Source: Escherichia coli (GTDB lineage: Bacteria; Pseudomonadota; Gammaproteobacteria; Enterobacterales; Enterobacteriaceae). From it: DNA of 64,000 bases. Shown here piece after piece: positions 2,382 through 41,745 of this stretch. Under the pieces are notes generated by a model. The model was not told where the DNA came from, made no database searches, and saw nothing but the letters and a program-made list of their open reading frames with translations. The translations under genes and the position numbers were made by a program. Each line of letters begins with the position of its first letter. Positions within the stretch are counted from its first letter, which is position 1. Location of the stretch: assembly GCF_011045215.1 (NCBI RefSeq), contig NZ_CP049202.1, one strand, 5' to 3'.

Positions 2382-3083
2382 GATAATACTCCGGTAATAA
2401 AGTATGCAGGCAGTATATACGTGAACAGATGTAATGACAAATGTATTGACATGTGACCTATGCCGCGTCAGCGGCATGGAAGGCGGCACTCCGTTGTTTC
2501 ATGTGATACTGGTGTAAAACCGCCGAAGCCCGGCGTAAGCCGGTACTGATTGACAGATTTCACCTTACCCATCCCCAGCCCTGCCAGACTATACCCGCTT
2601 TCAGCTATGAGAGAGCTTCTGTGCGCGGTCGGAGTGGTCCCGACGAGGGTTTACCCGAAGTCGGGGCGTATCTCCGCGTTAGCGGGCCGTCAGGGCCGCT
2701 TACGAGCGTGTACACGATACGTCCAGCCAGAAGACTGACAGCGATGATGATGTAGTTACAACATTCATAATTAAAAGCGACTCTGTTCCGGCCCTTTGGG
2801 CCGGGGCGGGGCCGCTTTTCAGTTATGAGGGATGGGCACGGTGTTTCAGAACTGTGTCTGTCGGGGCCCGCCGCTTGCGGTGGGAGGTGCTTTTAAATTC
2901 TGAGCGGCGCGGCTTTGGCCGCTGCAAGCGAAGGCCTTTTTGTATTTGTTCATAGACGTTTCAGAGATAAAGACTTTCCCTGCGGTGGAACAACGCAGGG
3001 GATTAAATGAAGGGGGTAAGACTATATTGCAGGTTTGCTGTTTCAGGTTTGCAGCTTCTTAAAGTTCTTTGTTTGCGGATTTA

Positions 3084-3092
3084 TGTGGATAA
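3084..3092 (-). promoter_or_regulatory. DnaA box (TTATCCACA on minus strand) in putative oriR
   Basis: plus strand reads TGTGGATAA, about 165 bp downstream of the 342-aa rep ORF stop, as in R1/R100-type origins. Confidence 0.5.
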
Positions 3093-3210
3093 CTGAAACG
3101 ACGTGGCCACGTTCTGACGACCGGTGAGAGATTTTATGGCCGTGTATGGACGGATGTGGGGATTTCAGGTGGTTACGGGGGATTTCTGGCCGGACAGAAC
3201 CTGCGCCAAA

Positions 3211-3225
3211 AGCCCCGAAGGGGCT
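3211..3225 (-). terminator. rho-independent terminator-like hairpin after the rep ORF
   Basis: AGCCCC-GAA-GGGGCT stem followed by a U-run on the minus strand, 35 bp after the stop at 3259. Confidence 0.5.
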
Positions 3226-3258
3226 GGCGATGATTCAGTGCTGAAGGAATGGTGTTGT

Positions 3259-4287
3259 CTAGTGCGGTGGCGGGGCAGCCAGCGTCAGTTCAAGCTGACG
3301 CAACTCCCTGATGGCCAGTCGCTTCAGATGGTCATCGGAACAAAAATAGGCTTCATCCGGCGGCAGACGCTTCCTGAGATACTCTGCCATCTCATGAATC
3401 TGCTGGTCGGCAGGCAGTTTCTTCAGGCGATTAGCACGCTTACAGGCTGCAGCTTTCGCCCGACGGTGTTTCAGCGCATCCTGGCTGCGCTGCAGATACC
3501 AGCGTTTTCTGGCCGCATGTACGGAGATATCTTCATCCTCACGCAGTACACCTTCCCGGATGAGCTGCTGGCGGATTTCACTTTCACGCAGCCGCTTCTG
3601 CTGCTGTTCGTGAAGTTTAACCATATCGACGCCCAGCATCTGCCACCCTGCCGGTGTTATCCAGACATAGCGCGGCAGACGCTGGCGGGTTTCACGGTCC
3701 CACATCGTTTCTTCCGACACACCCAGCACACCAAAACGTACCTGTTCGGTCAGCAGACGGGAAAGCCGGGAGACCGTCACTTCCAGTTCCGGAATAACCT
3801 TCCCCTTGCTGTCTTTCGGGCTGATTTCTCTGGCCAGACGGGAAACACTCATGCCTACGGTATGTGTGCCCGCATCACTGAAGCTGACCAGAACCGGCCA
3901 GATGGCATCGAGGAGGCGTTGTTTTTCCGGACGGAAAGCATATTTGCGACCGGCGAACGTCCGTTTCTGCACGTAAAAAGGATGCAGAGACATGTGCATG
4001 CGCAGGCTCTGTTCGCCAGTCACCGGGTCCTTTTTCACCAGGCGGTGATAAGCGTGCCCAAGCTGCCCGCTCAGCGCCTTATAGCGCGCAGGACGATACC
4101 AGGTCGGATTTTCGCATTTGGGTTTAGTGGAGTGCTCACCACGACGACGCTTTGTGCGCTTCCTTTCCGGTTCAACCAGGAAAGTGGTCGCCCTTCCCGC
4201 TTCATAATCTTCCCAGAAACGGATTTGCTCTTCGGGAGGCAACTGAGCCCAGTGGCCTGGACGGGTATTTTTAATCACCATACCCAC
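3259..4287 (-). CDS. replication-initiator-like ORF (342 aa, basic); relationship to RepA1 unresolved
   Basis: long ORF ending at the terminator and DnaA box; overlaps the RepA1-like ORF in another reading frame; opposite-strand 430-aa ORF judged a shadow. Confidence 0.45.
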
Positions 4288-5669: not shown

Positions 5670-6152
5670 TCAGACTTTATAAAATAAGGTGTCAGGTGCC
5701 ACAACTGACTGGACAAAACCAAAACGCTCATAAAACGCTCTGGCGTCATCATCAATTGCATGCACCATAACCGCCTTAACGCCAACCTGTTCAGCCACAT
5801 TTACAACCCGGTGAATAGCATCACTCAGCAGCCATTTACCGAAACCATGCCCCTGGGTACAAACATCAACAGCCAGACGCCCTAACAGAACAACAGGAAC
5901 AGGATTAGGCATGTTATGCCGCAAACTGCGCCCAAGCTCGGCATGTGTGACGGAACCCGTAGCTAATGAGTAGAACCCCACAACACGTAAAGTCCCCTCC
6001 AGGCAAATAACGAACGTGCGGGAAGCATTGAGCATCTGGTTTTTCATAGCCCGACCACGTAACCAGTTACTTAGCACCTCATTTCCACAGTCAAATGGCT
6101 GAAGTATATGCTCATCCGTCAGCAATGCCGGCGCGGTGACATTTATTTCCAT
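5670..6152 (-). CDS. GNAT-family acetyltransferase toxin (TacT/AtaT-like)
   Basis: 160 aa with GNAT-like core; overlaps the stop of an upstream DUF1778-like antitoxin ORF. Confidence 0.7.
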   Translation of the reverse strand: MEINVTAPALLTDEHILQPFDCGNEVLSNWLRGRAMKNQMLNASRTFVICLEGTLRVVGFYSLATGSVTHAELGRSLRHNMPNPVPVVLLGRLAVDVCTQGHGFGKWLLSDAIHRVVNVAEQVGVKAVMVHAIDDDARAFYERFGFVQSVVAPDTLFYKV

Positions 6153-6765: not shown

Positions 6766-6915
6766 TTACTTCCGTGCTTCGTAGGCCAGAGTTATCTGCA
6801 CCACTGTATTTCTCCTGTGAATATTCAGCTCACACAACCGTTCCCTGAATATCAGTGAAAAACACAACAACGTGGCGCACACAGCGAGCAACCCTATAAG
6901 GGCATATTTCGTCAT
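6766..6915 (-). CDS. srnB: Hok/Gef-family membrane toxin SrnB-like, with overlapping mok-like leader frame to 6972
   Basis: MTKYALIGLLAVCATLLCFSLIFRERLCELNIHRRNTVVQITLAYEARK matches Hok-family SrnB. Confidence 0.75.
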   Translation of the reverse strand: MTKYALIGLLAVCATLLCFSLIFRERLCELNIHRRNTVVQITLAYEARK

Positions 6916-7530: not shown

Positions 7531-7767
7531 TTAATGACTACACCGCTGTCTTTCGCTACAGTTCCCCCTGCAGCGCCGCTGGCAATGCTCTGCTCTTTGC
7601 AGGGCAGACTGTTGCCACTCTGCCCGGGAAGCCATCTGTGCGGCCCGACGCCACGCTCCGGCAGCCTCTCTCCATCGCCCCCTGACCTCCAGTCTGACCG
7701 CCTGACTCCCGGCTTGCTGATAATTCTGGCTCTGCGCATTTCGTGAACTTCGTCTGAGTCCATTCAT
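7531..7767 (-). CDS. hypothetical small basic protein (low confidence; two overlapping frames open here)
   Basis: 78-aa ORF with plausible RBS in GC-rich DNA between hha-like gene and finO. Confidence 0.25.
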   Translation of the reverse strand: MNGLRRSSRNAQSQNYQQAGSQAVRLEVRGRWREAAGAWRRAAQMASRAEWQQSALQRAEHCQRRCRGNCSERQRCSH

Positions 7768-31447: not shown

Positions 31448-32076
31448 TTTCTGCCCTCCTCTGCCGGAATAAATTCCACCTTCAGGAAGCGATCGCCGGG
31501 AACGGCGCTCACCCGTGCCGGGACCTGATCAATGCCGAGGCGCTGGCAGAGCACACCGTTCTGGTCAAAGTAAACACGGCTGTCCAGAGACTTCTGCATC
31601 TCCGGGATACTGCCCTGCACGAGGATAATTTTGCTCTCCAGTGTGGGCGGCGTCTGGCGTTTCATCCAGGCCACCTGCGCCGGATCATCGCCATTGATGA
31701 AATACAGCGTCTGGTTAAAAGGAACATACTGCAGCGGATTCATCACTTCACCCTGACGGGCAAACACCCGCCCTTCGTTATCCCGGATATCCGCAGCCAG
31801 TCTGACGGACGGGTCAAACAACCGGCTGCCGTATTTCTCCGTGCGTCCGATACCGGGCACGGCAGGGGGCCGCAGACTGTTGCGGATCACCCGCTCCTTA
31901 AAGGCATCCATTTTCCGGCCCATCTCACCGGACTGCTCCAGTGCCGTCAGGCGCTGCATGATCACCGTCAGCATGTCCGGCTCCTTTACCGGCCACAGAT
32001 CGCCCCAGGTACCAAGATCGGCGGCGGCCACACTCTGCCCCCATATCAGCAGGGCAATCAGCCCCCGGCATCTCAT
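31444..32076 (-). CDS. traW: TraW pilus assembly protein
   Basis: 210 aa from internal ATG at 32076, overlapping the trbI stop. Confidence 0.8.
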   Translation of the reverse strand: MRCRGLIALLIWGQSVAAADLGTWGDLWPVKEPDMLTVIMQRLTALEQSGEMGRKMDAFKERVIRNSLRPPAVPGIGRTEKYGSRLFDPSVRLAADIRDNEGRVFARQGEVMNPLQYVPFNQTLYFINGDDPAQVAWMKRQTPPTLESKIILVQGSIPEMQKSLDSRVYFDQNGVLCQRLGIDQVPARVSAVPGDRFLKVEFIPAEEGRK

Positions 32077-32453
32077 GGTTCCGCCCTCATTCGCCGGGCA
32101 ATATCCTGCTGGATTTCCCGGGTGATATCCGGTGCCCCCTGTACCACAGCAGGCGACACCAGAATGACCGCGTGGTGTTTCTGCTGCCACGCCTGCAGGC
32201 TGGCTTCCAGTGCCGTGTTAAAACGCGCTGAAAGGGCTTTTGACTGCGCTTCTGACAGTTGTTTCTGACTGGCGCTGTCAAAAAACGCATCCACGGTCTG
32301 TTTCATGTTGAAGGCGACAGTCACCGGTGCGTTCAGTCTGACAATGCCGTAACTGACGACCGTATTTATTGCCAGTATCCCTGCCAGCGCCAGCCACCAC
32401 GAATGTCGTGATACCTTCTTTCTTCGGTCTTTTAATTTCACATCAGTACTCAT
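32073..32453 (-). CDS. trbI: TrbI inner-membrane protein
   Basis: 126 aa with one TM helix, downstream of traC region. Confidence 0.7.
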   Translation of the reverse strand: MSTDVKLKDRRKKVSRHSWWLALAGILAINTVVSYGIVRLNAPVTVAFNMKQTVDAFFDSASQKQLSEAQSKALSARFNTALEASLQAWQQKHHAVILVSPAVVQGAPDITREIQQDIARRMRAEP

Positions 32454-32536
32454 AATAATGCCCCTGTTTTCTCTGTTTCCTCTTTGCGGTAATATGCTTC
32501 CCTGATTTTCAGGTAAGTTAAAAAGGTGCGTTTTAT

Positions 32537-33644
32537 ATGACGAAAAAAATCCTCTTATTTTCCCTGATTTTTATTTTTAGTATCACCGGCACTTTTTCTC
32601 TTATGATAAACGGCAAACAGAAAAAAAGTGCAGATAAAATCATTCCCGCAATCAACGCTAAATATAATAATAAATGGCTTACACACAGATTAATAAAAAT
32701 GGACTATGATAATGGAACGGCTTTATCTGTTATTCAGAAAGCATGGAATAACACCGAATACTTCATCCTCTCAGCCAGAAAAAAAATGCCAGTCAGCCAC
32801 AACCACTCTTAATTTTCTTTACTGCACAAATGATTTGCTTGGCGAAATGTTTCCTTATAAGGAATCCAATATGGTCAGCCCGGCATATGCCAGTCAGTTC
32901 TCTGATTGCGATCTGAATGTCTATCTTCTCATTGACGCAGCAAAAGAATCTGGCAGGCAGATTGAGATCATATTCGCCCCCTTCCACGCTTTTATTTCAT
33001 ATATTGATGATAATAATGCAAGAGCATACTGGGAAACAACCGCCAACCATAATAAAGGTTCTGTTGCGGATTTAAATGATAATCACTGGTATCAAAAAAC
33101 ATTCAATAAATTCTATTATGTTCCTCGTAGTGAAAATTACATAGAATCACTCTACTCTGTACTGATTGCAAATAGTGTAGACTCATCACATAAAAAAGAA
33201 ATATACAACAATCTTAAGCCGGAAATAAAAAAGACACCATTAGCCTATGATCTGTACTACAGCATGAAAAATGAAATCTCGTCTCAGGATGCCGAACAGA
33301 TTAATCTTTTGTTAAGAGAAGACATTACCTCATCATATAAACAACTTCTTCTTACCGGATACTTCATTAAAAACAACAATACAGAAGCAGCCCAAAAAAT
33401 CATTGACAACATACGAGCAAAAAACTGTAAATCAGACTGCATTAGGTTTAAGAAAAAAGTGTACTGGTACTTTTTTCCATCATATCTGATCTCTCAATAT
33501 GCATCGGAATTTGGCGTCACACTATCCCTTGAAGATATATATTATTATTACGCATTCAATATTATCATTATTCTGTTTAGTTCCCTTTTATTTTTGCCTA
33601 AAAGCAGAGATAAGAACAAGAAAAGGCGTGAGAACAATAAATAA
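32537..33644 (+). pseudogene. secreted Y/N/K-rich protein gene, antisense to tra, apparently frameshifted at an A8 tract
   Basis: 91-aa ORF with signal peptide continues as a 312-aa ORF in another frame; both frames read KK across the A8 run at 32779..32786. Confidence 0.45.
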
Positions 33645-34004
33645 CAGAGCAGGCACACCCCCATCCATAAGGAAACTCAGGGGGAGACTGCAGGTTACAG
33701 GCACCATGATATAGCATCCCATCACGATCAAAGGGCGATGACGACACAGTTCTGTATATTCATATAACCCGGTTCTGCCATATAAATCCCTGACAAGCAA
33801 AGACGGAGCAATCATAAACAAAACGCTTACAATGGCATAAATCATCAGCACATATTTTGTTTCTCTCAGAAATGGTTCCGGTGTATTTATTTCTGATTCA
33901 ACAAAACGCTCATACCAGTACAGAAACAGGTCGCCACAGGCCACACTGTTAAGGATAAAAAATAAGACAATATCAGATACCTTCTTTATATGACAAAATT
34001 TCAT
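33588..34004 (-). CDS. hypothetical polytopic membrane protein between traC and trbI
   Basis: about 138 aa from internal start; convergent 3' overlap with the plus-strand ORF. Confidence 0.4.
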   Translation of the reverse strand: MKFCHIKKVSDIVLFFILNSVACGDLFLYWYERFVESEINTPEPFLRETKYVLMIYAIVSVLFMIAPSLLVRDLYGRTGLYEYTELCRHRPLIVMGCYIMVPVTCSLPLSFLMDGGVPALLFIVLTPFLVLISAFRQK

Positions 34005-34026
34005 ATATACCCCTTGTGACCAACCC

Positions 34027-36672
34027 TTAACCCCAGTTTCCTGACATTCGTTCGCCGGACATTTCATGCTCTTTTAACCAGGCTTCCAGCGAAGCCATCT
34101 CCGGCCCTGACTTCTTCCACGCCAGCTGCCACACCGCCTCATGAATACTCAGGCCCTCTTTACGCTTCTGCTGCACAAACTCAAAATCCGGGCCGTCGGA
34201 GCTGTACATGGCACGGCTTAACGGGTCCACAAACAGACGGTGCCAGGAGGAATGGTTTTCCACCTGCAGCAGGAAGGAACTGAACCACTGGTCTTTAGCC
34301 GCACCAAACTTGCCAATCATGTCCCGCTGCAGTGGCAGGAACTGGTCCGGGAATAACTGGTTATATTTCGCGAACTCCTTCGCACTCTGTTTGAGGATAA
34401 TTTTGTAGGAGGAGTTACCCCATGCCGCACGGGCCGCACTGGAGGCCTTGTCAGAGTCAAAGTCGACGATGTTCTGTGTGATGGTGATATAGGCACCGGT
34501 ATGACGGCGACAGGTGCGGTAACCTTTTTGAATAAACTCACCGACTTTACGATTTTTGAAGTCCAGCAGACGCCAGCCTTCATCAATGACGTTCAGTTTT
34601 TTGAGAGTACGCGGCGTGCGGTACATCCTGTTCTCGATGTAGATAATCAGGGAGAACATCACCGCAACCAGCAGGGACGGACGGTCTTCCAGTCCACCCA
34701 GCTCCAGCACCACCATTCTGGCATCATCCCGCAGGGACGGTTCATCAGAGTTAAAATACCGGCCGTAAGTGCCGCCAGCGGTATATTGATCCAGAAGGAC
34801 AATCATTTCATCCAGACGGCTGCGGATGGTCGGAGACTCGACATACTGGTCGTTATCACGGGCGTTTTTCAGGAAATCCACCACATCATCGATGCGCGCC
34901 TTATTCTTTTTAGCCAGCCAGGAGGCCCTGACCGCCTGCAGCAGCAGACCTTCATGTACTTCATCCAGGTTACCGTTGGGGCTGGCCATCACCGACAACT
35001 GGTCACGGACACGCTCCGCTGACTGGTCAATATCAGTGATGTTCGCAAACGGGTTAAAACGCAGGGTTTCACCGTCCAGATATACGCCCCCCATGTTCTC
35101 ACACAGGGACTTGTAGCCATCCCCCATGTCGAACACCACGGCAAAGCCCCCGGAGTCCAGCACGCTGCGGATAAGTGGCTGTATCAGTCCGGTTTTACCG
35201 GCCCCGGAGGTGCCACAGACCGCCATGTTGTAGTTGGTGTTATTCATCCCCTTAAAGAAGATATCGATAAACGCCAGCTGGTTACGGTAGGTGGGCGCCA
35301 GCAGACCTGCCGGTGTCAGGGGATTATCCGCCACTAACGGCATCAGGTTGGCCACATTAAAACTCTCTGCCCGCTGTACCACTCCGGCCTCTTTCAGCTG
35401 TTTAAACAGCCCTTTCCCGGCCATAAAGGGCAGGCAGGTCAGGAAATTGCGCATGTGGTTAAAGCGCGGTGAAATCAGCTCAAAACCGTTTTTACGAAAG
35501 CTGTTCAGGATGTCCTGCTCCACTTCCAGTGCCGTTTCATTATTGTCCCTGCAGAAGGCTGTGATGTTGAGGAAGTAGGACACGACAGAAGACTGGCCGG
35601 AGCCCAGCCGCTGGCGCAGTTCCCCCCACTCCTTCGCCTCCTTTTCAACTGACGGAAACCATTTGGCATAGGAGGTCTTCGACTTTTTCTCCAGGTCCAT
35701 GTACTTCAGGTTGGCTTCGCTGTGGGTTTTCACCTGGTCTTCCACCACCAGAGTCAACGTCAGGATGAACGGGCAGGAAATGGACATTTCCGGGTTCAGC
35801 AGATTGCTGTAGTTGTCGGCCATGTTCCACAGGAAGGCGATTTCCGGGTTACGGGCCAGATGGAAATTCAGGATGCGGGCCGTGCTGTTCCTGCCGTTCT
35901 CACGCAGGCCCAGCGTCAGGTAATCAGCCCGGACTTTCAGGTCAAAACTGTCCTCCACACACTGATAATTCAGATCAGAATACGGATCCAGCTGACGTCT
36001 TTTCGGGTACAGAGAGTCCGGATTATGGTTAATCATCTCCCCGACAATCTCGATGAAAGCCTGTGCATCCACTGTCTGTGTGGTGATTTTTGCGCCGTGA
36101 AAAGAGGCACGGATGATTTTCACCAGATTTTCCATTTCCAGAATGTCAGCCCGGCTTTTTTTCTTCGAGGGAGAACAGTACGAGATAAACACCCGGTAAT
36201 GGCGCAGGGTCAGGGGCAGATTCATCCCCTCCGGCAGCGGGAACTGTGTCGCTGCCGCTTTCATATAATAGGCACGGGTAATGGCGTTAAACCGTTCAGC
36301 CTGTTCACCTGACCAGGAGAACTCACGCAGCCCGTATTCAATCCTGTCACCAACCAGCTGACTGGACATCAGATGGATACACAACGGAATACCGCGCGGC
36401 AGTTTGGTGCGCAGCATATGATCGAGAGCCTCCACAATGGACTCATTCGCACCATTGATGGGAATGGCTTCCAGCATAAAGCCCATCGTGGTGTCATTCA
36501 TGAACAGGCCGGACTCCTGGTTGTAATCACGGTACGGCAGCAGACGGCTGAACTGCGGGAAGCTCATCTCACCGAGGATCTGATTAGCCTGAGAGGATTC
36601 ATCCGGTAATTTAAGCGCAGTCAGCAGTGAATTAACCGCCTGAGTGACGGTCTCAAGTGGGTTTTTACTCAT
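34027..36672 (-). CDS. traC: TraC VirB4-like ATPase
   Basis: 881 aa; Walker A GTSGAGKT. Confidence 0.95.
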   Translation of the reverse strand: MSKNPLETVTQAVNSLLTALKLPDESSQANQILGEMSFPQFSRLLPYRDYNQESGLFMNDTTMGFMLEAIPINGANESIVEALDHMLRTKLPRGIPLCIHLMSSQLVGDRIEYGLREFSWSGEQAERFNAITRAYYMKAAATQFPLPEGMNLPLTLRHYRVFISYCSPSKKKSRADILEMENLVKIIRASFHGAKITTQTVDAQAFIEIVGEMINHNPDSLYPKRRQLDPYSDLNYQCVEDSFDLKVRADYLTLGLRENGRNSTARILNFHLARNPEIAFLWNMADNYSNLLNPEMSISCPFILTLTLVVEDQVKTHSEANLKYMDLEKKSKTSYAKWFPSVEKEAKEWGELRQRLGSGQSSVVSYFLNITAFCRDNNETALEVEQDILNSFRKNGFELISPRFNHMRNFLTCLPFMAGKGLFKQLKEAGVVQRAESFNVANLMPLVADNPLTPAGLLAPTYRNQLAFIDIFFKGMNNTNYNMAVCGTSGAGKTGLIQPLIRSVLDSGGFAVVFDMGDGYKSLCENMGGVYLDGETLRFNPFANITDIDQSAERVRDQLSVMASPNGNLDEVHEGLLLQAVRASWLAKKNKARIDDVVDFLKNARDNDQYVESPTIRSRLDEMIVLLDQYTAGGTYGRYFNSDEPSLRDDARMVVLELGGLEDRPSLLVAVMFSLIIYIENRMYRTPRTLKKLNVIDEGWRLLDFKNRKVGEFIQKGYRTCRRHTGAYITITQNIVDFDSDKASSAARAAWGNSSYKIILKQSAKEFAKYNQLFPDQFLPLQRDMIGKFGAAKDQWFSSFLLQVENHSSWHRLFVDPLSRAMYSSDGPDFEFVQQKRKEGLSIHEAVWQLAWKKSGPEMASLEAWLKEHEMSGERMSGNWG

Positions 36673-36798: not shown

Positions 36799-37161
36799 TT
36801 AACGTTCCTTTACTGAATGAGCATCATTTAATGCCTGAAGTTGTTTTTCGCGTATCTTATTGCGCTCGTTTTCTCTTACCCGTTTCACCTCTGCCATTTC
36901 GTTTCTTTCTCTACACGCTGATGCAAGCTCTTTTGCCTTACCAAGACTTAAAGGTTCAGGCTGATAATCAGATGTGTCAGACTTAATAGCTTCCTTAAAT
37001 GCTTCTGCTGCACAGGGGGTATCCTGTGTAATCTCTGTCAGTTGTTCTGGTGTTGCAGGTTGTTGCTCAAGGTAATCATTGTAAAAAAGACCACATATCA
37101 ACATAGCCATAACACCAACAAATATAAAAGCCAGAACAGATTTTAAATATATCGACTTCAT
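36799..37161 (-). CDS. hypothetical single-TM protein (traR-traC gap)
   Basis: 120-aa ORF, hydrophobic N-terminus, charged C-terminus. Confidence 0.45.
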   Translation of the reverse strand: MKSIYLKSVLAFIFVGVMAMLICGLFYNDYLEQQPATPEQLTEITQDTPCAAEAFKEAIKSDTSDYQPEPLSLGKAKELASACRERNEMAEVKRVRENERNKIREKQLQALNDAHSVKER

Positions 37162-37406
37162 TTCATTTTAGCCTTATATAATTCCCATTGTCGGATATAC
37201 TCCTCATACTGAGCCACTGGCACATTAACGATGACTCCGGCACACTCCAGTTTATTAACCGGTTCAGTAAATGCGCCTGTCGGTATATTCACTTCCAGAA
37301 ATTTACAGTCATTTTTCCAGTATCTCCCGACATCCAGTTCATCCATCGTGAATGACTGACTGGCGAACACAACAAGCGTAATAAAAGAAAAACATCCAGT
37401 AAGCAC
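37158..37406 (-). CDS. hypothetical small protein (traR-traC gap)
   Basis: 82-aa ORF with N-terminal hydrophobic segment. Confidence 0.4.
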   Translation of the reverse strand: MLTGCFSFITLVVFASQSFTMDELDVGRYWKNDCKFLEVNIPTGAFTEPVNKLECAGVIVNVPVAQYEEYIRQWELYKAKMK

Positions 37407-37558
37407 ACTACAAACTAATATTTTTCATCTGCTGATCTGCAGACTGAATTTTTCAGGGATAACAAACATAGCCAGTAAGTTAACAACACAGATAACCACA
37501 AGAAAGAGACACAGGAATATAAACCAGTCGATATTATTTCCTTCGAAGTAGTAAGCTC

Positions 37559-37777
37559 TCATTGCCCACCACCATTCAGTGTTTCCATCACATTGTTCAA
37601 AGGTTCATTTGTTTTAACTTCAATACACTCCCCTGTATTTCCAAAGCCCCTGCCTCCATGCGCTTCGATTGTCCGAAGAACCTGCACGCATACGTCCGTA
37701 TTTGGCATGGGAGTAACATTCCAGCTTCCGCCACCGTTAATATTTTTTATCAGCACAAGAAAAATAAAGGTATGCAT
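37559..37777 (-). CDS. hypothetical small secreted protein (traR-traC gap)
   Basis: 72-aa ORF with signal-peptide-like start. Confidence 0.35.
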   Translation of the reverse strand: MHTFIFLVLIKNINGGGSWNVTPMPNTDVCVQVLRTIEAHGGRGFGNTGECIEVKTNEPLNNVMETLNGGGQ

Positions 37778-37855
37778 TCTTTATTACCTCCAGTTAAATA
37801 TTAATCACTGAATATTCATTCAGTTAACTATGAGGTCAGAAACACCGCAGATTTT

Positions 37856-38329
37856 TCATTCGGATTTACTCTCTTCAGAAAACTGCCGGATGGTATCCTG
37901 TTCACGCTGACGAGTGGCAGACTCCTGCATTGCATCCACTTTCTCCTGCCAGAGACGCCGGATATCCTTTTCATCCCGACCAGTCAGTTTTTTACCGGAC
38001 AGCAGACGGTTAAGCAGTTCCTGTCTCGCATCCGGTATGTCTTCAGTCAGACGCATAAGCTGAAGCAGGCTCTGACGGCTGAGGACCATGAGTGATTCTG
38101 GCAGGAGGGTGAAGAAGCAAATAAAACAGCATACCGCACCACTGCAGGCAAGGACCGCAAACAGGATTTTCAGATATATACCATCAACGCCGAACGCAGC
38201 AATAACACAGGGAATCCATGCAATACACGCACAAAACGCCAGGATGTTATATATTCGGTTATGTCTGCGATATATCTGTTGATGTTCATCCAGAATAAAA
38301 TCGATTTTTTCAGCTTCTGATTTATGCAT
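37856..38329 (-). CDS. hypothetical membrane protein (traR-traC gap)
   Basis: about 157 aa from internal start MHKSEAEK...; two hydrophobic helices. Confidence 0.45.
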   Translation of the reverse strand: MHKSEAEKIDFILDEHQQIYRRHNRIYNILAFCACIAWIPCVIAAFGVDGIYLKILFAVLACSGAVCCFICFFTLLPESLMVLSRQSLLQLMRLTEDIPDARQELLNRLLSGKKLTGRDEKDIRRLWQEKVDAMQESATRQREQDTIRQFSEESKSE

Positions 38330-38543
38330 AGTGTTTCCTCTGCCTTTCCTGATACGCCTGACATTCAACACATAACGTCACACCGGGAAATATTTTCCGC
38401 CGGGCTTCCGGAACAGGATTTCCGCATGCTTCACAGAGATAAACAGGAATACCATGAACATTTATTTTCTGGCGTATCCGGTTTATTCCTGTCATGGTCA
38501 GTTGTTCTGTCACTGAATATGCTTCATCGGCTTCATCACTCAC
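38322..38543 (-). CDS. traR: TraR DksA-like zinc-finger protein
   Basis: 73 aa with C4 zinc finger (CEACGNPVPEARRKIFPGVTLCVEC). Confidence 0.85.
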   Translation of the reverse strand: MSDEADEAYSVTEQLTMTGINRIRQKINVHGIPVYLCEACGNPVPEARRKIFPGVTLCVECQAYQERQRKHYA

Positions 38544-38677: not shown

Positions 38678-39193
38678 TTAATTAATACGTGGTTTTCCCC
38701 ACGCAGACGGTTTAATAACAAAAAACACACTGGATGGCTGATGATAAACATCCTGATTATCAATATAAGGCGCTATCCATAATGCTGCCGTCTGCTCACC
38801 CGTTCTTAGCGGACGGGGAGGCGTTACCGGCACAACTGAACTGACCGGAACAACCGTTTTCACTTCCCGGGCAGCGGTAAACAGCGGGCGTGGCGCCAGC
38901 AGTTTCTGCTCCGGAAGTGCCGTCACCGCAGGTCTGCTGCCGGACGGAGTGGTCGCGGTGACGGTCTGCACCGGCATTGTCCGGAAGTTCCCTTCAGCCA
39001 GGCGCGGCAGTGATGCCGCAACCGGCTTTGCTTCTGAGGACTGCTCCAGTTTTTTGGCCTTATCATTGGCCTGCTCCATCGTCATACAGGTATCGGATGT
39101 GGTGGCGTTACACTCAAATTCCGTACTGGTTCCGGCACAGCCGGAAAGTAATAAGGTCCCCAGCAGAGGAATAAATAAAGAAATCTGTTTCAT
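38678..39193 (-). CDS. traV: TraV outer-membrane lipoprotein
   Basis: 171 aa; lipobox LLSGC. Confidence 0.85.
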   Translation of the reverse strand: MKQISLFIPLLGTLLLSGCAGTSTEFECNATTSDTCMTMEQANDKAKKLEQSSEAKPVAASLPRLAEGNFRTMPVQTVTATTPSGSRPAVTALPEQKLLAPRPLFTAAREVKTVVPVSSVVPVTPPRPLRTGEQTAALWIAPYIDNQDVYHQPSSVFFVIKPSAWGKPRIN

Positions 39194-39441: not shown

Positions 39442-39754
39442 CGAAGGGGTCCTTATATTTCTGAATAATTCTGTCGATTAGTTCTTTCACCGGAACAGAT
39501 TTTCCGCCACCGGATTGTCCGGCAACCACAATATGCCCCGGAGAAGAAAATAAACTCATCGACATACCCTTCTTCATCACACCGACAGCAGCCATATTAA
39601 AATTGTCCGGCAATGACTCAGAACCGAATTTCTCCGGTGCAGGAAGGACGATTCTTGTGGCGCAGTTACTGAGAACAGCATGAATAAAATCATCTGACAC
39701 GGTTTTACCCGGCACAGAGAGGGCTGTAATAACATTAATATTACGCATGTTCAT
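39434..39754 (-). CDS. ORF at the trbD position with a C-terminal Walker-A-like motif
   Basis: about 106 aa from internal start; GQSGGGKS motif near the C-terminus. Confidence 0.4.
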   Translation of the reverse strand: MNMRNINVITALSVPGKTVSDDFIHAVLSNCATRIVLPAPEKFGSESLPDNFNMAAVGVMKKGMSMSLFSSPGHIVVAGQSGGGKSVPVKELIDRIIQKYKDPFDE

Positions 39755-40331
39755 TTTTATCTCCGTTGTTTCTGATTGTTCTGTCATCAGGGAAATAAAC
39801 ATGGCATTCCCTGATTTTTCCCGGCAGGGAAGTGTCTTCTGCAAGAACTTCCTTCAGACGCTCATCTGCAGTTGCCACCCGGACACATTTCATTTTTCCG
39901 GGTCGCATCGGATATTTTCCGGAGATCACCGCCAGCGAGACATACATCAGTGCCAGCGTTGCCCATAATGCGGTGAACAGTTGCATCAGAGACTAGTCAG
40001 TCTCCCTGGCATATTCTGCAGCATCCCCCCGGCGAAAACCGCACGTTACAGACGGAGGCATCGCTAAATCGGAACCAAAACTGTTCGAGCAGTATCGGAC
40101 CGGATACAGCCCGGCTGGCGTTCTGCCCCTTACAAACTCGATCTCCTGAACCAGCAATTTCCCCGGTGTGGTGTTGTCCTTCCATAAAACAAACAGAGCC
40201 ATCAGGGCCATTGTGGCCAGTGGCAGAATGACGGCGTATTTCAGACACCAGAACAGTCCTCGCAGAACCCGGGCGACAACATACCGGGCGGCATGGCCCG
40301 CCTGACGGGACGACGTATTATTTGCCATCAT
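39741..40331 (-). pseudogene. traP: traP interrupted by an in-frame amber codon
   Basis: 112-aa and 81-aa ORFs share one frame, separated by TAG at 39993..39995; total about 196 codons as F TraP. Confidence 0.6.
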
Positions 40332-41745
40332 TGCCCCCTCCCTGACTGCCGGACATAAACTGCTGCGGATTCAGGTTGCCCAGTTGCTTCAGCATCTGGT
40401 CAGTATTAAAGCCGTTAAGATGACTTTCAGCTGATGGCGGAACAGGAACCGGACTTTCCGGATTGTCTTCTTCCGCTCTGCTCTGCGTGCGTTCCAGCGC
40501 CATCTCTTCCACGGTTTTCAGCTGGAAGCCGTCCTGGAACACCACGGTCACTTCGTTGCCCGCACCAATCGGTATCACCGGGTGATACTGTTCGGCACGT
40601 TTGATGTAGTAGTCACTTAGCGTCTGTGCGGCTTTCGATGCGCCGCCACCGATACCCATTTTAAGGACATCGCCGACCCCGTAAGCAGCAGTGGCACCCA
40701 GCCCGACAGCCGGCTGGGAGGCGCGCTCCATTCCCTGACCGATACCGTCAACAAATCCCGCGCCCCATGCCCAGCCGAGGATTTTGCCGTTACGCATCAC
40801 CACTTCGCCCTTGATACCGTTTTTACCCCGGAAGCTGACATGCCCCTTAATCGGCATATCAATGGTTTTGCCGTCCTTCAGGCAGCTGATATTGCGGGTG
40901 CGTACAATGGCACGCTCACTGGACACATCCCCCCAGGCTTCCAGACCCACAAAACATCCCGTTGCGTCATACGTCTTGCTGTTCGGCATTTCCACCAGGC
41001 CGGTGATACGCAGCTGCATCGGCACCGTGGATTCATTACCGGTGACAGAGGCATTGGCATCAGCCCCTTCAATCAGCATGGCTTTCGCAAAACTTCCTGA
41101 CGGAATGTACGGCAGTGATGGTCCCTGTTTTCCCTCATTACGGGTAAACACCTTACGCTGTATCCGGTTAGGTACCGGCACAGACTGGTACGTCACCTGT
41201 GGTGGTGGCGTGACACCATTCCCGGGATAAAACGCCGTCGGCGGTGGAACAGCAACGCTGCCCTGCGGCGGGAAGGATACGGGGGTGTTTCCTGGCTGTG
41301 GTTCGCCTTCCGGGCCGGGCGGTGAGGCAGGCATCTGCGGTACAGGCTCACCGGTCGCCGTGACGGGATTAGCACCCAGGGCTTTTACCTGCTCTGCCAG
41401 GGCGGCATTGTCCTGTCCCAGCTTTTCAATACGACGCTGGTCATCACCGCGCTGTTTGTTCAGAACATCCAGCTCACGACGGATTTCCTCATACTGCTTC
41501 TGCATCTGCGCTGCCGTCACCTGCATCTCGGTGGTGGCATGCTGACGCACCTTGTCATCAAAGGTCGTATCCACCACACCGGTCATATCCGGCACAGGCT
41601 CCTGTTCAGCCACGGTTTCACCGTTACCGGACATGTCCACATCAGACAGATACAGTGCCCCACCAATCGCGGAGGCTGTACCGACAACCACAATCCCCAG
41701 CCACAGGTACTGCTTGCGTTTCACAATGGTATTGATACTGGCCAT
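40318..41745 (-). CDS. traB: TraB VirB10-like protein
   Basis: 475 aa, same length as F TraB; proline-rich linker. Confidence 0.9.
   Translation of the reverse strand: MASINTIVKRKQYLWLGIVVVGTASAIGGALYLSDVDMSGNGETVAEQEPVPDMTGVVDTTFDDKVRQHATTEMQVTAAQMQKQYEEIRRELDVLNKQRGDDQRRIEKLGQDNAALAEQVKALGANPVTATGEPVPQMPASPPGPEGEPQPGNTPVSFPPQGSVAVPPPTAFYPGNGVTPPPQVTYQSVPVPNRIQRKVFTRNEGKQGPSLPYIPSGSFAKAMLIEGADANASVTGNESTVPMQLRITGLVEMPNSKTYDATGCFVGLEAWGDVSSERAIVRTRNISCLKDGKTIDMPIKGHVSFRGKNGIKGEVVMRNGKILGWAWGAGFVDGIGQGMERASQPAVGLGATAAYGVGDVLKMGIGGGASKAAQTLSDYYIKRAEQYHPVIPIGAGNEVTVVFQDGFQLKTVEEMALERTQSRAEEDNPESPVPVPPSAESHLNGFNTDQMLKQLGNLNPQQFMSGSQGGGNDGK

What the first reader, a model, noticed from the sequence alone, without database searches (positions are those of the whole stretch)
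36799..38329. Four small membrane or secreted ORFs between traR and traC
As I recall F, traR is followed directly by traC. Here four ORFs of 120, 82, 72 and about 157 aa, most with hydrophobic N-termini, fill 1.5 kb. They may be accessory T4SS components or unrelated cargo.
Basis: partly seen in the sequence, partly recalled or inferred. Interest (0 to 1): 0.4.

Follow-up and report, generated by a model that had tools for sequence, protein, structure and literature searches.

The report
R100-type small ORFs between traR and traC
The small genes between traR and traC are the uncharacterised accessory genes already annotated in R100-type F-like plasmids (yfiA, yfiB, yfiC), plus a fourth gene that R100 has deleted and that a stop codon disrupts here, so the finding is ordinary.

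Summary
The window holds an F-like tra operon on the minus strand. ORFs of 120, 82, 72 and 157 aa do lie between traR (38322-38543) and traC (34027-36672).

- **Three are R100's own genes.** The 157-aa ORF is yfiA (90% aa identity), the 72-aa ORF is yfiB (97%) and the 120-aa ORF is yfiC (79%).
- **The "82-aa ORF" is not a gene.** It is the tail of a 134-codon gene (37158-37562) cut by a GGA>TGA nonsense codon at 37425-37427. The gene is intact in about 30 E. coli plasmids and in over 2,300 Klebsiella F-like plasmids.
- **R100 and F are deletion derivatives.** R100 keeps a 9-codon scar of the 134-codon gene. F's 159-bp traR-traC spacer is a frameshifted relic of yfiA.
- **The genes are real but unassigned.** All four families sit almost only on conjugative MPF_F plasmids and evolve under purifying selection (dN/dS about 0.1-0.6). 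They overlap their neighbours by 4-8 nt and match no Pfam, NCBIfam, PADLOC, PDB or Tra/Trb family.
- **They are dispensable for DNA transfer.** F lacks them, and they carry lesions in several plasmids.

The most likely role is small envelope proteins made together with the pilus machinery. That role is inferred, not shown. Verdict: already known, low interest.

The parts
38322..38543 (-). traR (73 aa, GTG start), the upstream flank. Its stop overlaps the yfiA start by 8 nt.
   Evidence: NCBIfam PRK13715 TraR E=6.5e-54 and Pfam zf-dskA_traR E=6e-13. 97% identical to R100 TraR.
37856..38329 (-). yfiA-family gene (157 aa). Predicted inner-membrane helical hairpin (TMs about 29-47 and 55-73). The N-terminal 20 residues and the C-terminal about 75 residues are conserved, charged and predicted to be cytoplasmic.
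   Evidence: 90% aa identity to the R100 157-aa ORF. Named yfiA in OZ026781. GAGGA Shine-Dalgarno before the ATG at 38329. 153 homologues, all 'hypothetical' and all Enterobacteriaceae. Found on 2,925 PLSDB plasmids. AF2 model is all-helical with pLDDT 78. dN/dS is 0.2-0.5 in the termini and 0.9-1.3 in the TM hairpin.
37559..37777 (-). yfiB-family gene (72 aa). The most conserved of the block, with two conserved Cys (30, 51) and no TM-length hydrophobic segment.
   Evidence: 97% identity to the R100 72-aa ORF and 69% to the Klebsiella pKP6701 72-aa ORF in the same interval. dN/dS 0.09-0.26. GGAGG Shine-Dalgarno. Found on 3,601 plasmids. Best Kyte-Doolittle 19-mer score is 0.9.
37158..37562 (-). 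134-codon gene ('ORF134'), a pseudogene here. It has two TMs and a C-terminal alpha-beta3-alpha domain with a conserved Cys pair (86, 107), which I infer to be periplasmic. Its start overlaps the yfiB stop (ATGA) and its stop overlaps the yfiC start (ATGA).
   Evidence: One frame with an internal stop. Intact 134-aa orthologues at 92-97% in E. coli plasmids and 53% in Klebsiella. AF2 pLDDT 85. R100 keeps only a 9-codon scar.
37425..37427 (-). Premature stop codon TGA (Gly46 GGA>TGA) inside ORF134.
   Evidence: Codon comparison with CP010123 and CP101951. The same allele is present in two independent public assemblies: SRR22308413 contig L015 (99.7% identical over 1,122 bp) and ERZ27287286 contig L016.
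37158..37406 (-). It is the C-terminal fragment of ORF134 from an internal GTG and is probably not translated on its own.
   Evidence: No Shine-Dalgarno upstream. In frame with 37425-37562.
36799..37161 (-). yfiC-family gene (120 aa). One N-terminal TM (about 8-26), then a charged helical domain with a conserved Cys pair (50, 83), which I infer to be periplasmic.
   Evidence: UniRef name 'YfiC protein'. 79% identity to the R100 115-aa ORF and 100% to CP010123. Homologues of about 40% identity follow ORF134 in Klebsiella plasmids. 36 invariant columns.
34027..36672 (-). traC (881 aa, VirB4-type ATPase), the downstream flank. It starts 126 nt after the yfiC stop.
   Evidence: ORF list. Annotated traC in every matching plasmid.

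Best explanation
**What it is (shown).** The interval holds the ancestral accessory block of F-like (MPF_F) tra operons: yfiA, yfiB, ORF134 and yfiC.
- It lies on the tra strand between traR and traC. I infer that it is read as part of the long tra transcript.
- The genes overlap their neighbours: traR/yfiA by 8 nt, yfiB/ORF134 by 4 nt and ORF134/yfiC by 4 nt.
- Three genes are R100's own. The fourth, ORF134, is intact in a minority of E. coli plasmids and in most Klebsiella F-like plasmids. R100 has deleted it, and a nonsense codon inactivates it in this plasmid.
- F has lost the whole block.

**What the proteins look like (predicted).**
- YfiA is a membrane hairpin with conserved N- and C-terminal parts predicted to be cytoplasmic.
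- ORF134 (two TMs) and YfiC (one TM) each carry a domain with a conserved Cys pair, inferred to be periplasmic.
- YfiB is a 72-aa protein with two conserved Cys and no transmembrane segment.

**How it most likely works (inferred).** The proteins would be made only in cells that express the tra operon. They are dispensable for DNA transfer. They would act as auxiliary envelope factors that adjust pilus or T4SS assembly, or buffer its cost to the envelope, in the way of F's non-essential trb genes.

The confidence figure applies to the identity and evolutionary statements. I put the functional part at about 0.35.
For: **Identity**
- R100 carries ORFs of 137, 157, 72 and 115 aa between traR and traC.
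- The window's ORFs are 90%, 97% and 79% identical to the last three. Names come and PMC5052281.

**ORF134**
- One frame with a TGA at codon 46. Intact orthologues exist.
- 2,553 plasmids carry it, 2,339 of them Klebsiella.
- It holds the same relative position in pKP6701.
- The R100 scar reads MSAYCFEGK*, a 375-nt in-frame deletion.

**F relic**
- yfiA codons 1-28 match at 79% (E=1e-12). After a frameshift, codons 29-46 match at 67%.

**Real genes**
- dN/dS is 0.09-0.26 for yfiB, 0.26 for ORF134 against Klebsiella at dS 1.2, 0.13-0.55 for yfiC and 0.25-0.6 for yfiA.
- Shine-Dalgarno motifs or ATGA overlaps precede each start.

**Link to conjugation**
- 97-98% of the plasmids carrying each family are typed conjugative.
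- No promoter-like or terminator-like excess lies inside the block.

**Dispensability**
- F lacks the block.
- yfiB is frameshifted or truncated in L009-L011, plasmids that MOB-suite (via PLSDB) types as conjugative.
- ORF134 is frameshifted in L012/L013, and the yfiC-like gene is frameshifted in pKP6701.
- An ORF134'-yfiC fusion occurs on 127 contigs.

**Topology**
- Kyte-Doolittle scan and Cys positions. AF2 models.
Against: - No experiment or publication was found that assigns any function.
- There is no homology to any Tra/Trb protein: hhalign probability is below 22%.
- G+C is 38-41% against 52-58% in the core tra genes.
- Distant relatives of the ORF134 domain sit outside tra operons, in Providencia p15793C_57 and pKP04VIM. 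Both points fit acquired cargo as well as they fit accessory factors.
- Frequent loss could mean the genes contribute little.
- Topology and compartment are predicted, not measured.
Confidence: 0.85

Rival explanations
1. The block is unrelated cargo riding in the tra operon. On this reading the small genes serve the plasmid or host in ways unconnected with T4SS assembly, for example host manipulation like TraR, competition with other elements, or protection from male-specific phage. They sit in the traV-traC slot only because insertions are tolerated there and the tra promoter supplies expression.
For: - G+C is 38-41% against 52-58% in the flanking core genes.
- The slot's content varies: F has none, R100 has 4 ORFs, CP023355 has 5, and Klebsiella pKP6701 has six different annotated small ORFs (plus an unannotated frameshifted yfiC-like frame) and no annotated traR.
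- TraR, which shares the slot, is a host RNA-polymerase regulator rather than a T4SS part (PMC2613031, PMC9239242).
- Distant ORF134-domain homologues lie in arrays of small ORFs outside tra operons.
- A second low-GC insert sits between traC and trbI in this same plasmid.
Against: - The close family members are almost confined to MPF_F conjugative plasmids and keep the same position and order in E. coli and Klebsiella lineages, although synonymous sites are saturated.
- No PADLOC defence model or informative PHROG match was found.
Confidence: 0.35
2. YfiA is a specificity determinant of the immunity or exclusion kind. Its hypervariable membrane hairpin would recognise a variable partner, and R100 carries two alleles in tandem (yfhA and yfiA).
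For: - The hairpin (codons 21-80) comes in at least four very different allele classes between conserved termini.
- dN/dS is 0.9-1.3 in the hairpin against 0.2-0.5 in the termini.
- R100 and CP023355 carry tandem paralogues with different hairpins.
Against: - dN/dS near 1 with retained hydrophobicity is what a mere membrane anchor under relaxed constraint would show.
- No partner is identified.
- There is no similarity to TraS, TraT or colicin immunity proteins.
- F has lost the gene without a known exclusion defect (background knowledge).
Confidence: 0.08
3. The ORFs are chance or decaying open frames with no function.
For: - Function is unknown, no domain matches, and lesions are common in individual plasmids, including this one.
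Against: - Each family is on thousands of plasmids, with dN/dS well below 1 at large distances and full-length conservation between E. coli and Klebsiella.
- Shine-Dalgarno motifs and coupled starts are present.
- AF2 models are confident.
- This reading holds only for the 82-aa fragment and ORF134 in this particular plasmid.
Confidence: 0.03

Closest known systems
R100 (NC_002134 / AP000342) yfhA-yfiA-yfiB-yfiC block between traR and traC
   Same: - It has the same position, strand and order, and the same 8-nt traR/yfiA overlap.
- YfiA is 90% identical, YfiB 97% and YfiC 79%.
- The function is equally unknown.
   Different: - The window lacks yfhA, which is a tandem duplicate of yfiA codons 1-129 fused to the last 7 codons of traR.
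- The window keeps the full-length ORF134 frame, with a nonsense codon. R100 has only a 9-codon scar.
E. coli plasmids CP010123 (strain C5 plasmid A), CP101951 and NC_019094 (p417H-90), which carry the four-gene arrangement
   Same: - The architecture is the same: yfiA, yfiB, ORF134, yfiC.
- Against CP010123, yfiB and yfiC are 100% identical and ORF134 is 97% identical at protein level.
   Different: - ORF134 is intact in these plasmids.
- CP010123 carries a different yfiA hairpin allele, 59% identical.
- Only about 31-35 PLSDB records, and 35 of 5,426 complete E. coli genomes, have this arrangement.
traV-traC interval of Klebsiella F-like plasmids (for example pKP6701, NZ_AP018754)
   Same: - It holds homologues of yfiB (69%), ORF134 (53%) and a yfiC-like frame.
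- They are in the same order, with the same ATGA coupling of ORF134 to yfiC.
   Different: - No traR or yfiA is annotated.
- It has additional ORFs of 136, 96, 105 and 132 aa.
- The 96-aa protein shares the ORF134 C-terminal domain (hhalign probability 99.6%).
Non-essential small trb genes of F (trbD, trbG, trbI, trbE, trbA, trbJ, trbF)
   Same: - They are small proteins, mostly membrane or periplasmic, encoded inside the tra operon.
- Their loss does not abolish transfer (background knowledge of F genetics, for example Maneewannakul and Ippen-Ihler 1993, cited in PMC5102898).
   Different: - There is no sequence or profile similarity to any of them.
- The analogy is functional only and is not tested.

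Membership tests
R100-type traR-traC accessory ORFs (yfiA, yfiB, yfiC) | Located between traR and traC, on the tra strand. | tested here: met
   ORF map. R100 map.
R100-type traR-traC accessory ORFs (yfiA, yfiB, yfiC) | Full-length sequence orthology to R100 YfiA, YfiB and YfiC. | tested here: met
   90%, 97% and 79% aa identity over full length. DNA identity is 86-94%.
R100-type traR-traC accessory ORFs (yfiA, yfiB, yfiC) | Every ORF of the finding has an R100 counterpart. | tested here: not met
   The 82-aa ORF, which is part of ORF134, has no R100 gene. R100 keeps only the scar MSAYCFEGK* at the same site. The gene therefore belongs to the same ancestral block but not to R100's present gene set.
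ORF134 family (2-TM plus Cys-pair domain; unnamed hypothetical proteins of F-like plasmids) | A 134-aa intact reading frame with the conserved C-terminal motif W-x2-DC-x2-LE-x-NI-x-G-x-F-x3-N-x-L-x-C-x3-I-x-NV. | tested here: inconclusive
   The motif and all 134 codons are present. Codon 46 is TGA, so no full-length product is expected. It is a member by descent and a pseudogene by state.
F-type T4SS (MPF_F) Tra/Trb components | Sequence or profile homology to a known Tra/Trb protein of F or R100. | tested here: not met
   No match in Pfam or NCBIfam. Apart from the block's own R100 and Klebsiella homologues, hhalign against the 54 proteins of the traM-finO regions of F, R100 and pKP6701 gave at most 22% probability. 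That top hit is an artefact of a traV-yfiC fusion sequence in the alignment.
F-type T4SS (MPF_F) Tra/Trb components | Required for pilus formation or DNA transfer. | not testable with these tools
   The evidence is indirect. F lacks the block, and plasmids typed conjugative by MOB-suite (PLSDB) carry lesions in it.
Known anti-phage defence systems (PADLOC) | Match to a defence-system protein model. | tested here: not met
   No families at E<=1 for any of the four proteins.
DksA/TraR zinc-finger regulators | C4 zinc-finger domain PF01258. | tested here: not met
   Only the flanking traR has it. The QRKHYA tail of R100 YfhA is a fusion with the 3' end of traR, not a zinc finger.

The most novel reading that the evidence does not exclude
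yfiB, ORF134 and yfiC form a conserved, co-translated envelope module of F-like plasmids, with yfiA coupled to traR. The module has been kept in the traV-traC slot since before the E. coli and Klebsiella F-like lineages split. On this reading it has a real but conditional role in conjugation that laboratory F genetics never saw, because F had already deleted it. Possible roles are mating efficiency or host range in natural settings, control of pilus dynamics, or relief of envelope stress together with TraR.
Probability: 0.3. Interest if true: 0.45.

Novelty: already known. Interest (0 to 1): 0.15.

Why it matters
The direct importance is small. These genes are annotated, as yfiA/B/C or 'hypothetical protein', on thousands of sequenced F-like plasmids, and nothing here changes how conjugation is understood.

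Two points are useful.

1. **Annotation.** The 82-aa ORF should be recorded as part of a nonsense-disrupted 134-codon gene, not as a gene in its own right.
2. **Evolutionary direction.** The textbook F arrangement, with traR next to traC, is a deletion derivative that still carries a yfiA relic. R100 carries an ORF134 scar. The model plasmid on which tra genetics was built therefore lacks a block that most natural F-like plasmids keep under purifying selection.

That makes the block a reasonable, cheap target for deletion studies in clinically relevant IncF plasmids.

Tried and rejected
- **Family libraries.** Pfam, NCBIfam, PADLOC and PHROGs scans of all the ORFs gave nothing significant. The best were E=0.01-0.04 chance-level hits, including a PHROG 'superinfection exclusion' hit at E=0.037 for YfiC.
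- **PDB sequence searches.** Profiles of three families and the YfiB sequence gave nothing below E=0.1.
- **Exhaustive HMMER search with YfiB.** Against 1.8 billion representatives it returned only a small family plus noisy fragments and glycine-rich chance hits.
- **hhalign against 54 proteins of the transfer regions of F, R100 and pKP6701 (Tra, Trb and the other annotated ORFs).** No relation was found except ORF134 to Klebsiella Kp_96.
- **Literature.** Seven full-text searches found the gene names only (PMC2762410, PMC5052281) and no functional study.
- **Other features of the interval.** No Rfam family lies in it. Repeats are only short chance pairs. There is no excess of promoter-like or terminator-like sites.
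- **Sequencing error as the cause of the TGA.** I rejected this because two independent assemblies carry the same allele.

Full report
**Context.** The window is an F-like plasmid of the MOBF / MPF_F type.
- Rfam finds FinP and the traJ 5' UTR, AS-traG, CopA and two sok RNAs.
- The tra operon runs on the minus strand: traB 40318-41745, traV 38678-39193, traR 38322-38543 and traC 34027-36672.
- More than 3,700 PLSDB plasmids match the 2.2 kb around the finding. They are almost all Escherichia, Klebsiella, Salmonella or Shigella, and 96% are typed conjugative.

**Observation.** One of them is mis-called.
- Coordinates 37158-37562 are a single 405-nt frame whose codon 46 is TGA at 37425-37427.
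- In the closest relatives the codon is GGA, and the frame encodes an intact 134-aa protein.
- The "82-aa ORF" is therefore the tail of this gene, read from an internal GTG that has no Shine-Dalgarno. The 45-aa head (37425-37562) was overlooked.
- The stop is not a one-off read error. A Logan contig from SRR22308413 (99.7% identical over 1,122 bp) and an ENA metagenome contig carry the same TGA. The 82-aa product is a database cluster of 17 sequences.

**Identity.**
- F has a 159-bp traR-traC gap with no annotated gene.
- R100 has four genes there, of 137, 157, 72 and 115 aa. The literature and some annotations call them yfhA, yfiA, yfiB and yfiC (PMC2762410; PMC5052281).
- The window's 157-, 72- and 120-aa proteins are 90%, 97% and 79% identical to R100 YfiA, YfiB and YfiC.
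- The window lacks yfhA. That gene is a tandem duplicate of yfiA codons 1-129 fused to the last seven codons of traR.

**The fourth gene.** ORF134 has no R100 gene, but it is not new.
- It is on 2,553 PLSDB plasmids, of which 2,339 are Klebsiella and 76 are Escherichia.
- It is intact in about 30 E. coli plasmids with the same four-gene order.
- In Klebsiella pKP6701 it lies in the traV-traC interval after a yfiB homologue (69%) and before a yfiC-like frame. It has the same ATGA overlap with that frame.
- Alignment of the R100 yfiB-yfiC spacer with the window shows that R100 retains the first eight codons, the last codon and the stop of ORF134 (MSAYCFEGK*). This is a clean 375-nt in-frame deletion.

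**F is also a derivative.** F's 159-bp spacer encodes yfiA codons 1-28 (79% identity, E=1e-12). After a frameshift it encodes codons 29-46. The four-gene block is therefore ancestral, and both R100 and F are deletion derivatives.

**Are they genes?** Yes.
- dN/dS against relatives is 0.09-0.26 for yfiB and 0.26 for ORF134 against Klebsiella (dS 1.2). It is 0.13-0.55 for yfiC and 0.25-0.6 for yfiA.
- Starts are preceded by GAGGA, GGAGG or AAGG motifs, or overlap the upstream stop. The overlaps are 8 nt for traR/yfiA and ATGA for yfiB/ORF134 and ORF134/yfiC.
- No excess of promoter-like or terminator-like sites interrupts the block.
- Each family is on 2,500-3,600 plasmids, of which 97-98% are typed conjugative.
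- In complete E. coli genomes, 888 of 5,426 carry part of the block. Nearly all copies are on plasmids, and 35 genomes have the full four-gene form.

**What the proteins look like.**
- *YfiA.* It has a hydrophilic conserved N-terminus (MHKSEAEKIDFILDEH), two internal TM helices and a conserved charged helical C-terminal half. The hairpin exists in several very different alleles. It evolves at dN/dS 0.9-1.3, against 0.2-0.5 for the termini.
- *YfiB.* It is 72 aa with two conserved Cys and no TM-length hydrophobic segment.
- *ORF134.* It has two TMs and a confident alpha-beta3-alpha C-terminal domain with an invariant or nearly invariant Cys pair (pLDDT 85). The same domain follows a single TM in the 96-aa Klebsiella protein (hhalign 99.6%).
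- *YfiC.* It has one N-terminal TM and a charged helical domain with an invariant Cys pair.
- The compartments are inferred from charge distribution and the Cys pairs. They were not measured.

**Function.** Nothing assigns one.
- There are no Pfam, NCBIfam, PADLOC or meaningful PHROG matches.
- There are no PDB relatives by sequence and no informative structural neighbours.
- There is no profile similarity to any Tra or Trb protein of F, R100 or pKP6701.
- No functional paper turned up in seven full-text searches.

What can be said is as follows.
- *Shown.* The genes are dispensable for transfer as such. F lacks them, and individual plasmids typed conjugative by MOB-suite carry frameshifts or truncations in yfiB, ORF134 or the yfiC-like gene.
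- *Shown.* Even so, they are retained under purifying selection in a fixed position across deeply diverged F-like lineages.
- *Inferred.* They are made with the pilus-assembly genes and act in the envelope as auxiliary factors, by analogy with F's non-essential trb genes. I put this at about 0.35.

**The main rival** is cargo unrelated to T4SS assembly, also at about 0.35. Four observations support it.
- The block's G+C is 38-41%, against 52-58% in the core genes.
- The content of the slot varies between plasmids.
- TraR, which shares the slot, is a host regulator.
- Distant ORF134-domain homologues lie outside tra operons.

**Verdict.** This is the standard R100-type block, plus the ancestral fourth gene that R100 deleted and that is a pseudogene here. 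It is already known and of low interest. The worthwhile residue is the corrected annotation and the inference that the F and R100 arrangements are deletion derivatives.

Noticed in passing
window 32454-34026: A 1.57-kb low-GC (32-40%) block lies between trbI (32073-32453, minus strand) and traC. It holds a 312-aa ORF on the opposite strand (32706-33644) and a 159-aa hydrophobic ORF (33588-34067, minus strand) that overlaps the traC stop. Neither has a Pfam match. Only 24 PLSDB plasmids carry the block, all E. coli and all typed conjugative, so it is much rarer than the finding examined here.
   Followed up: partly
window 39741-40331: traP is split into two ORFs. 39993-40331 matches Pfam TraP positions 1-114, and 39741-39986 matches positions 118-202. 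It is therefore a second disrupted non-essential tra gene in this plasmid.
   Followed up: partly
L006 (R100) 5699-6112: R100 yfhA (137 aa) is a tandem duplicate of yfiA codons 1-129 with a different TM-hairpin allele. It is fused in frame to the last seven codons of traR (QRKHYA).
   Followed up: partly
L006 (R100) 6873-6903: The R100 yfiB-yfiC spacer is a 9-codon scar of ORF134 (MSAYCFEGK*), left by a 375-nt in-frame deletion.
   Followed up: yes
L005 (F plasmid) 7575-7741: F's 159-bp traR-traC spacer is a frameshifted relic of yfiA codons 1-46. F's 'traR directly followed by traC' layout is therefore derived, not ancestral.
   Followed up: yes
window 37856-38329 (codons 21-80 of yfiA): The YfiA membrane hairpin occurs in several very divergent alleles between conserved termini. 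Its dN/dS is 0.9-1.3, against 0.2-0.5 in the termini. Relaxed constraint and diversifying selection cannot be told apart here.
   Followed up: partly
L017 4863-5234 (Providencia p15793C_57); L018 3875-4315 (pKP04VIM): Distant homologues of ORF134 (about 33% identity) have the same architecture of two TMs plus a Cys-pair domain. They lie in long same-strand arrays of small hypothetical ORFs outside any F-type tra operon, one of them downstream of topB.
   Followed up: partly
protein clusters P0134 and P0174: Two natural fusion variants exist. One is a 175-aa ORF134'-YfiC fusion, seen on 127 contigs. The other is a YfiC domain fused to the TraV lipoprotein signal peptide. Both show repeated deletions within this interval.
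   Followed up: no
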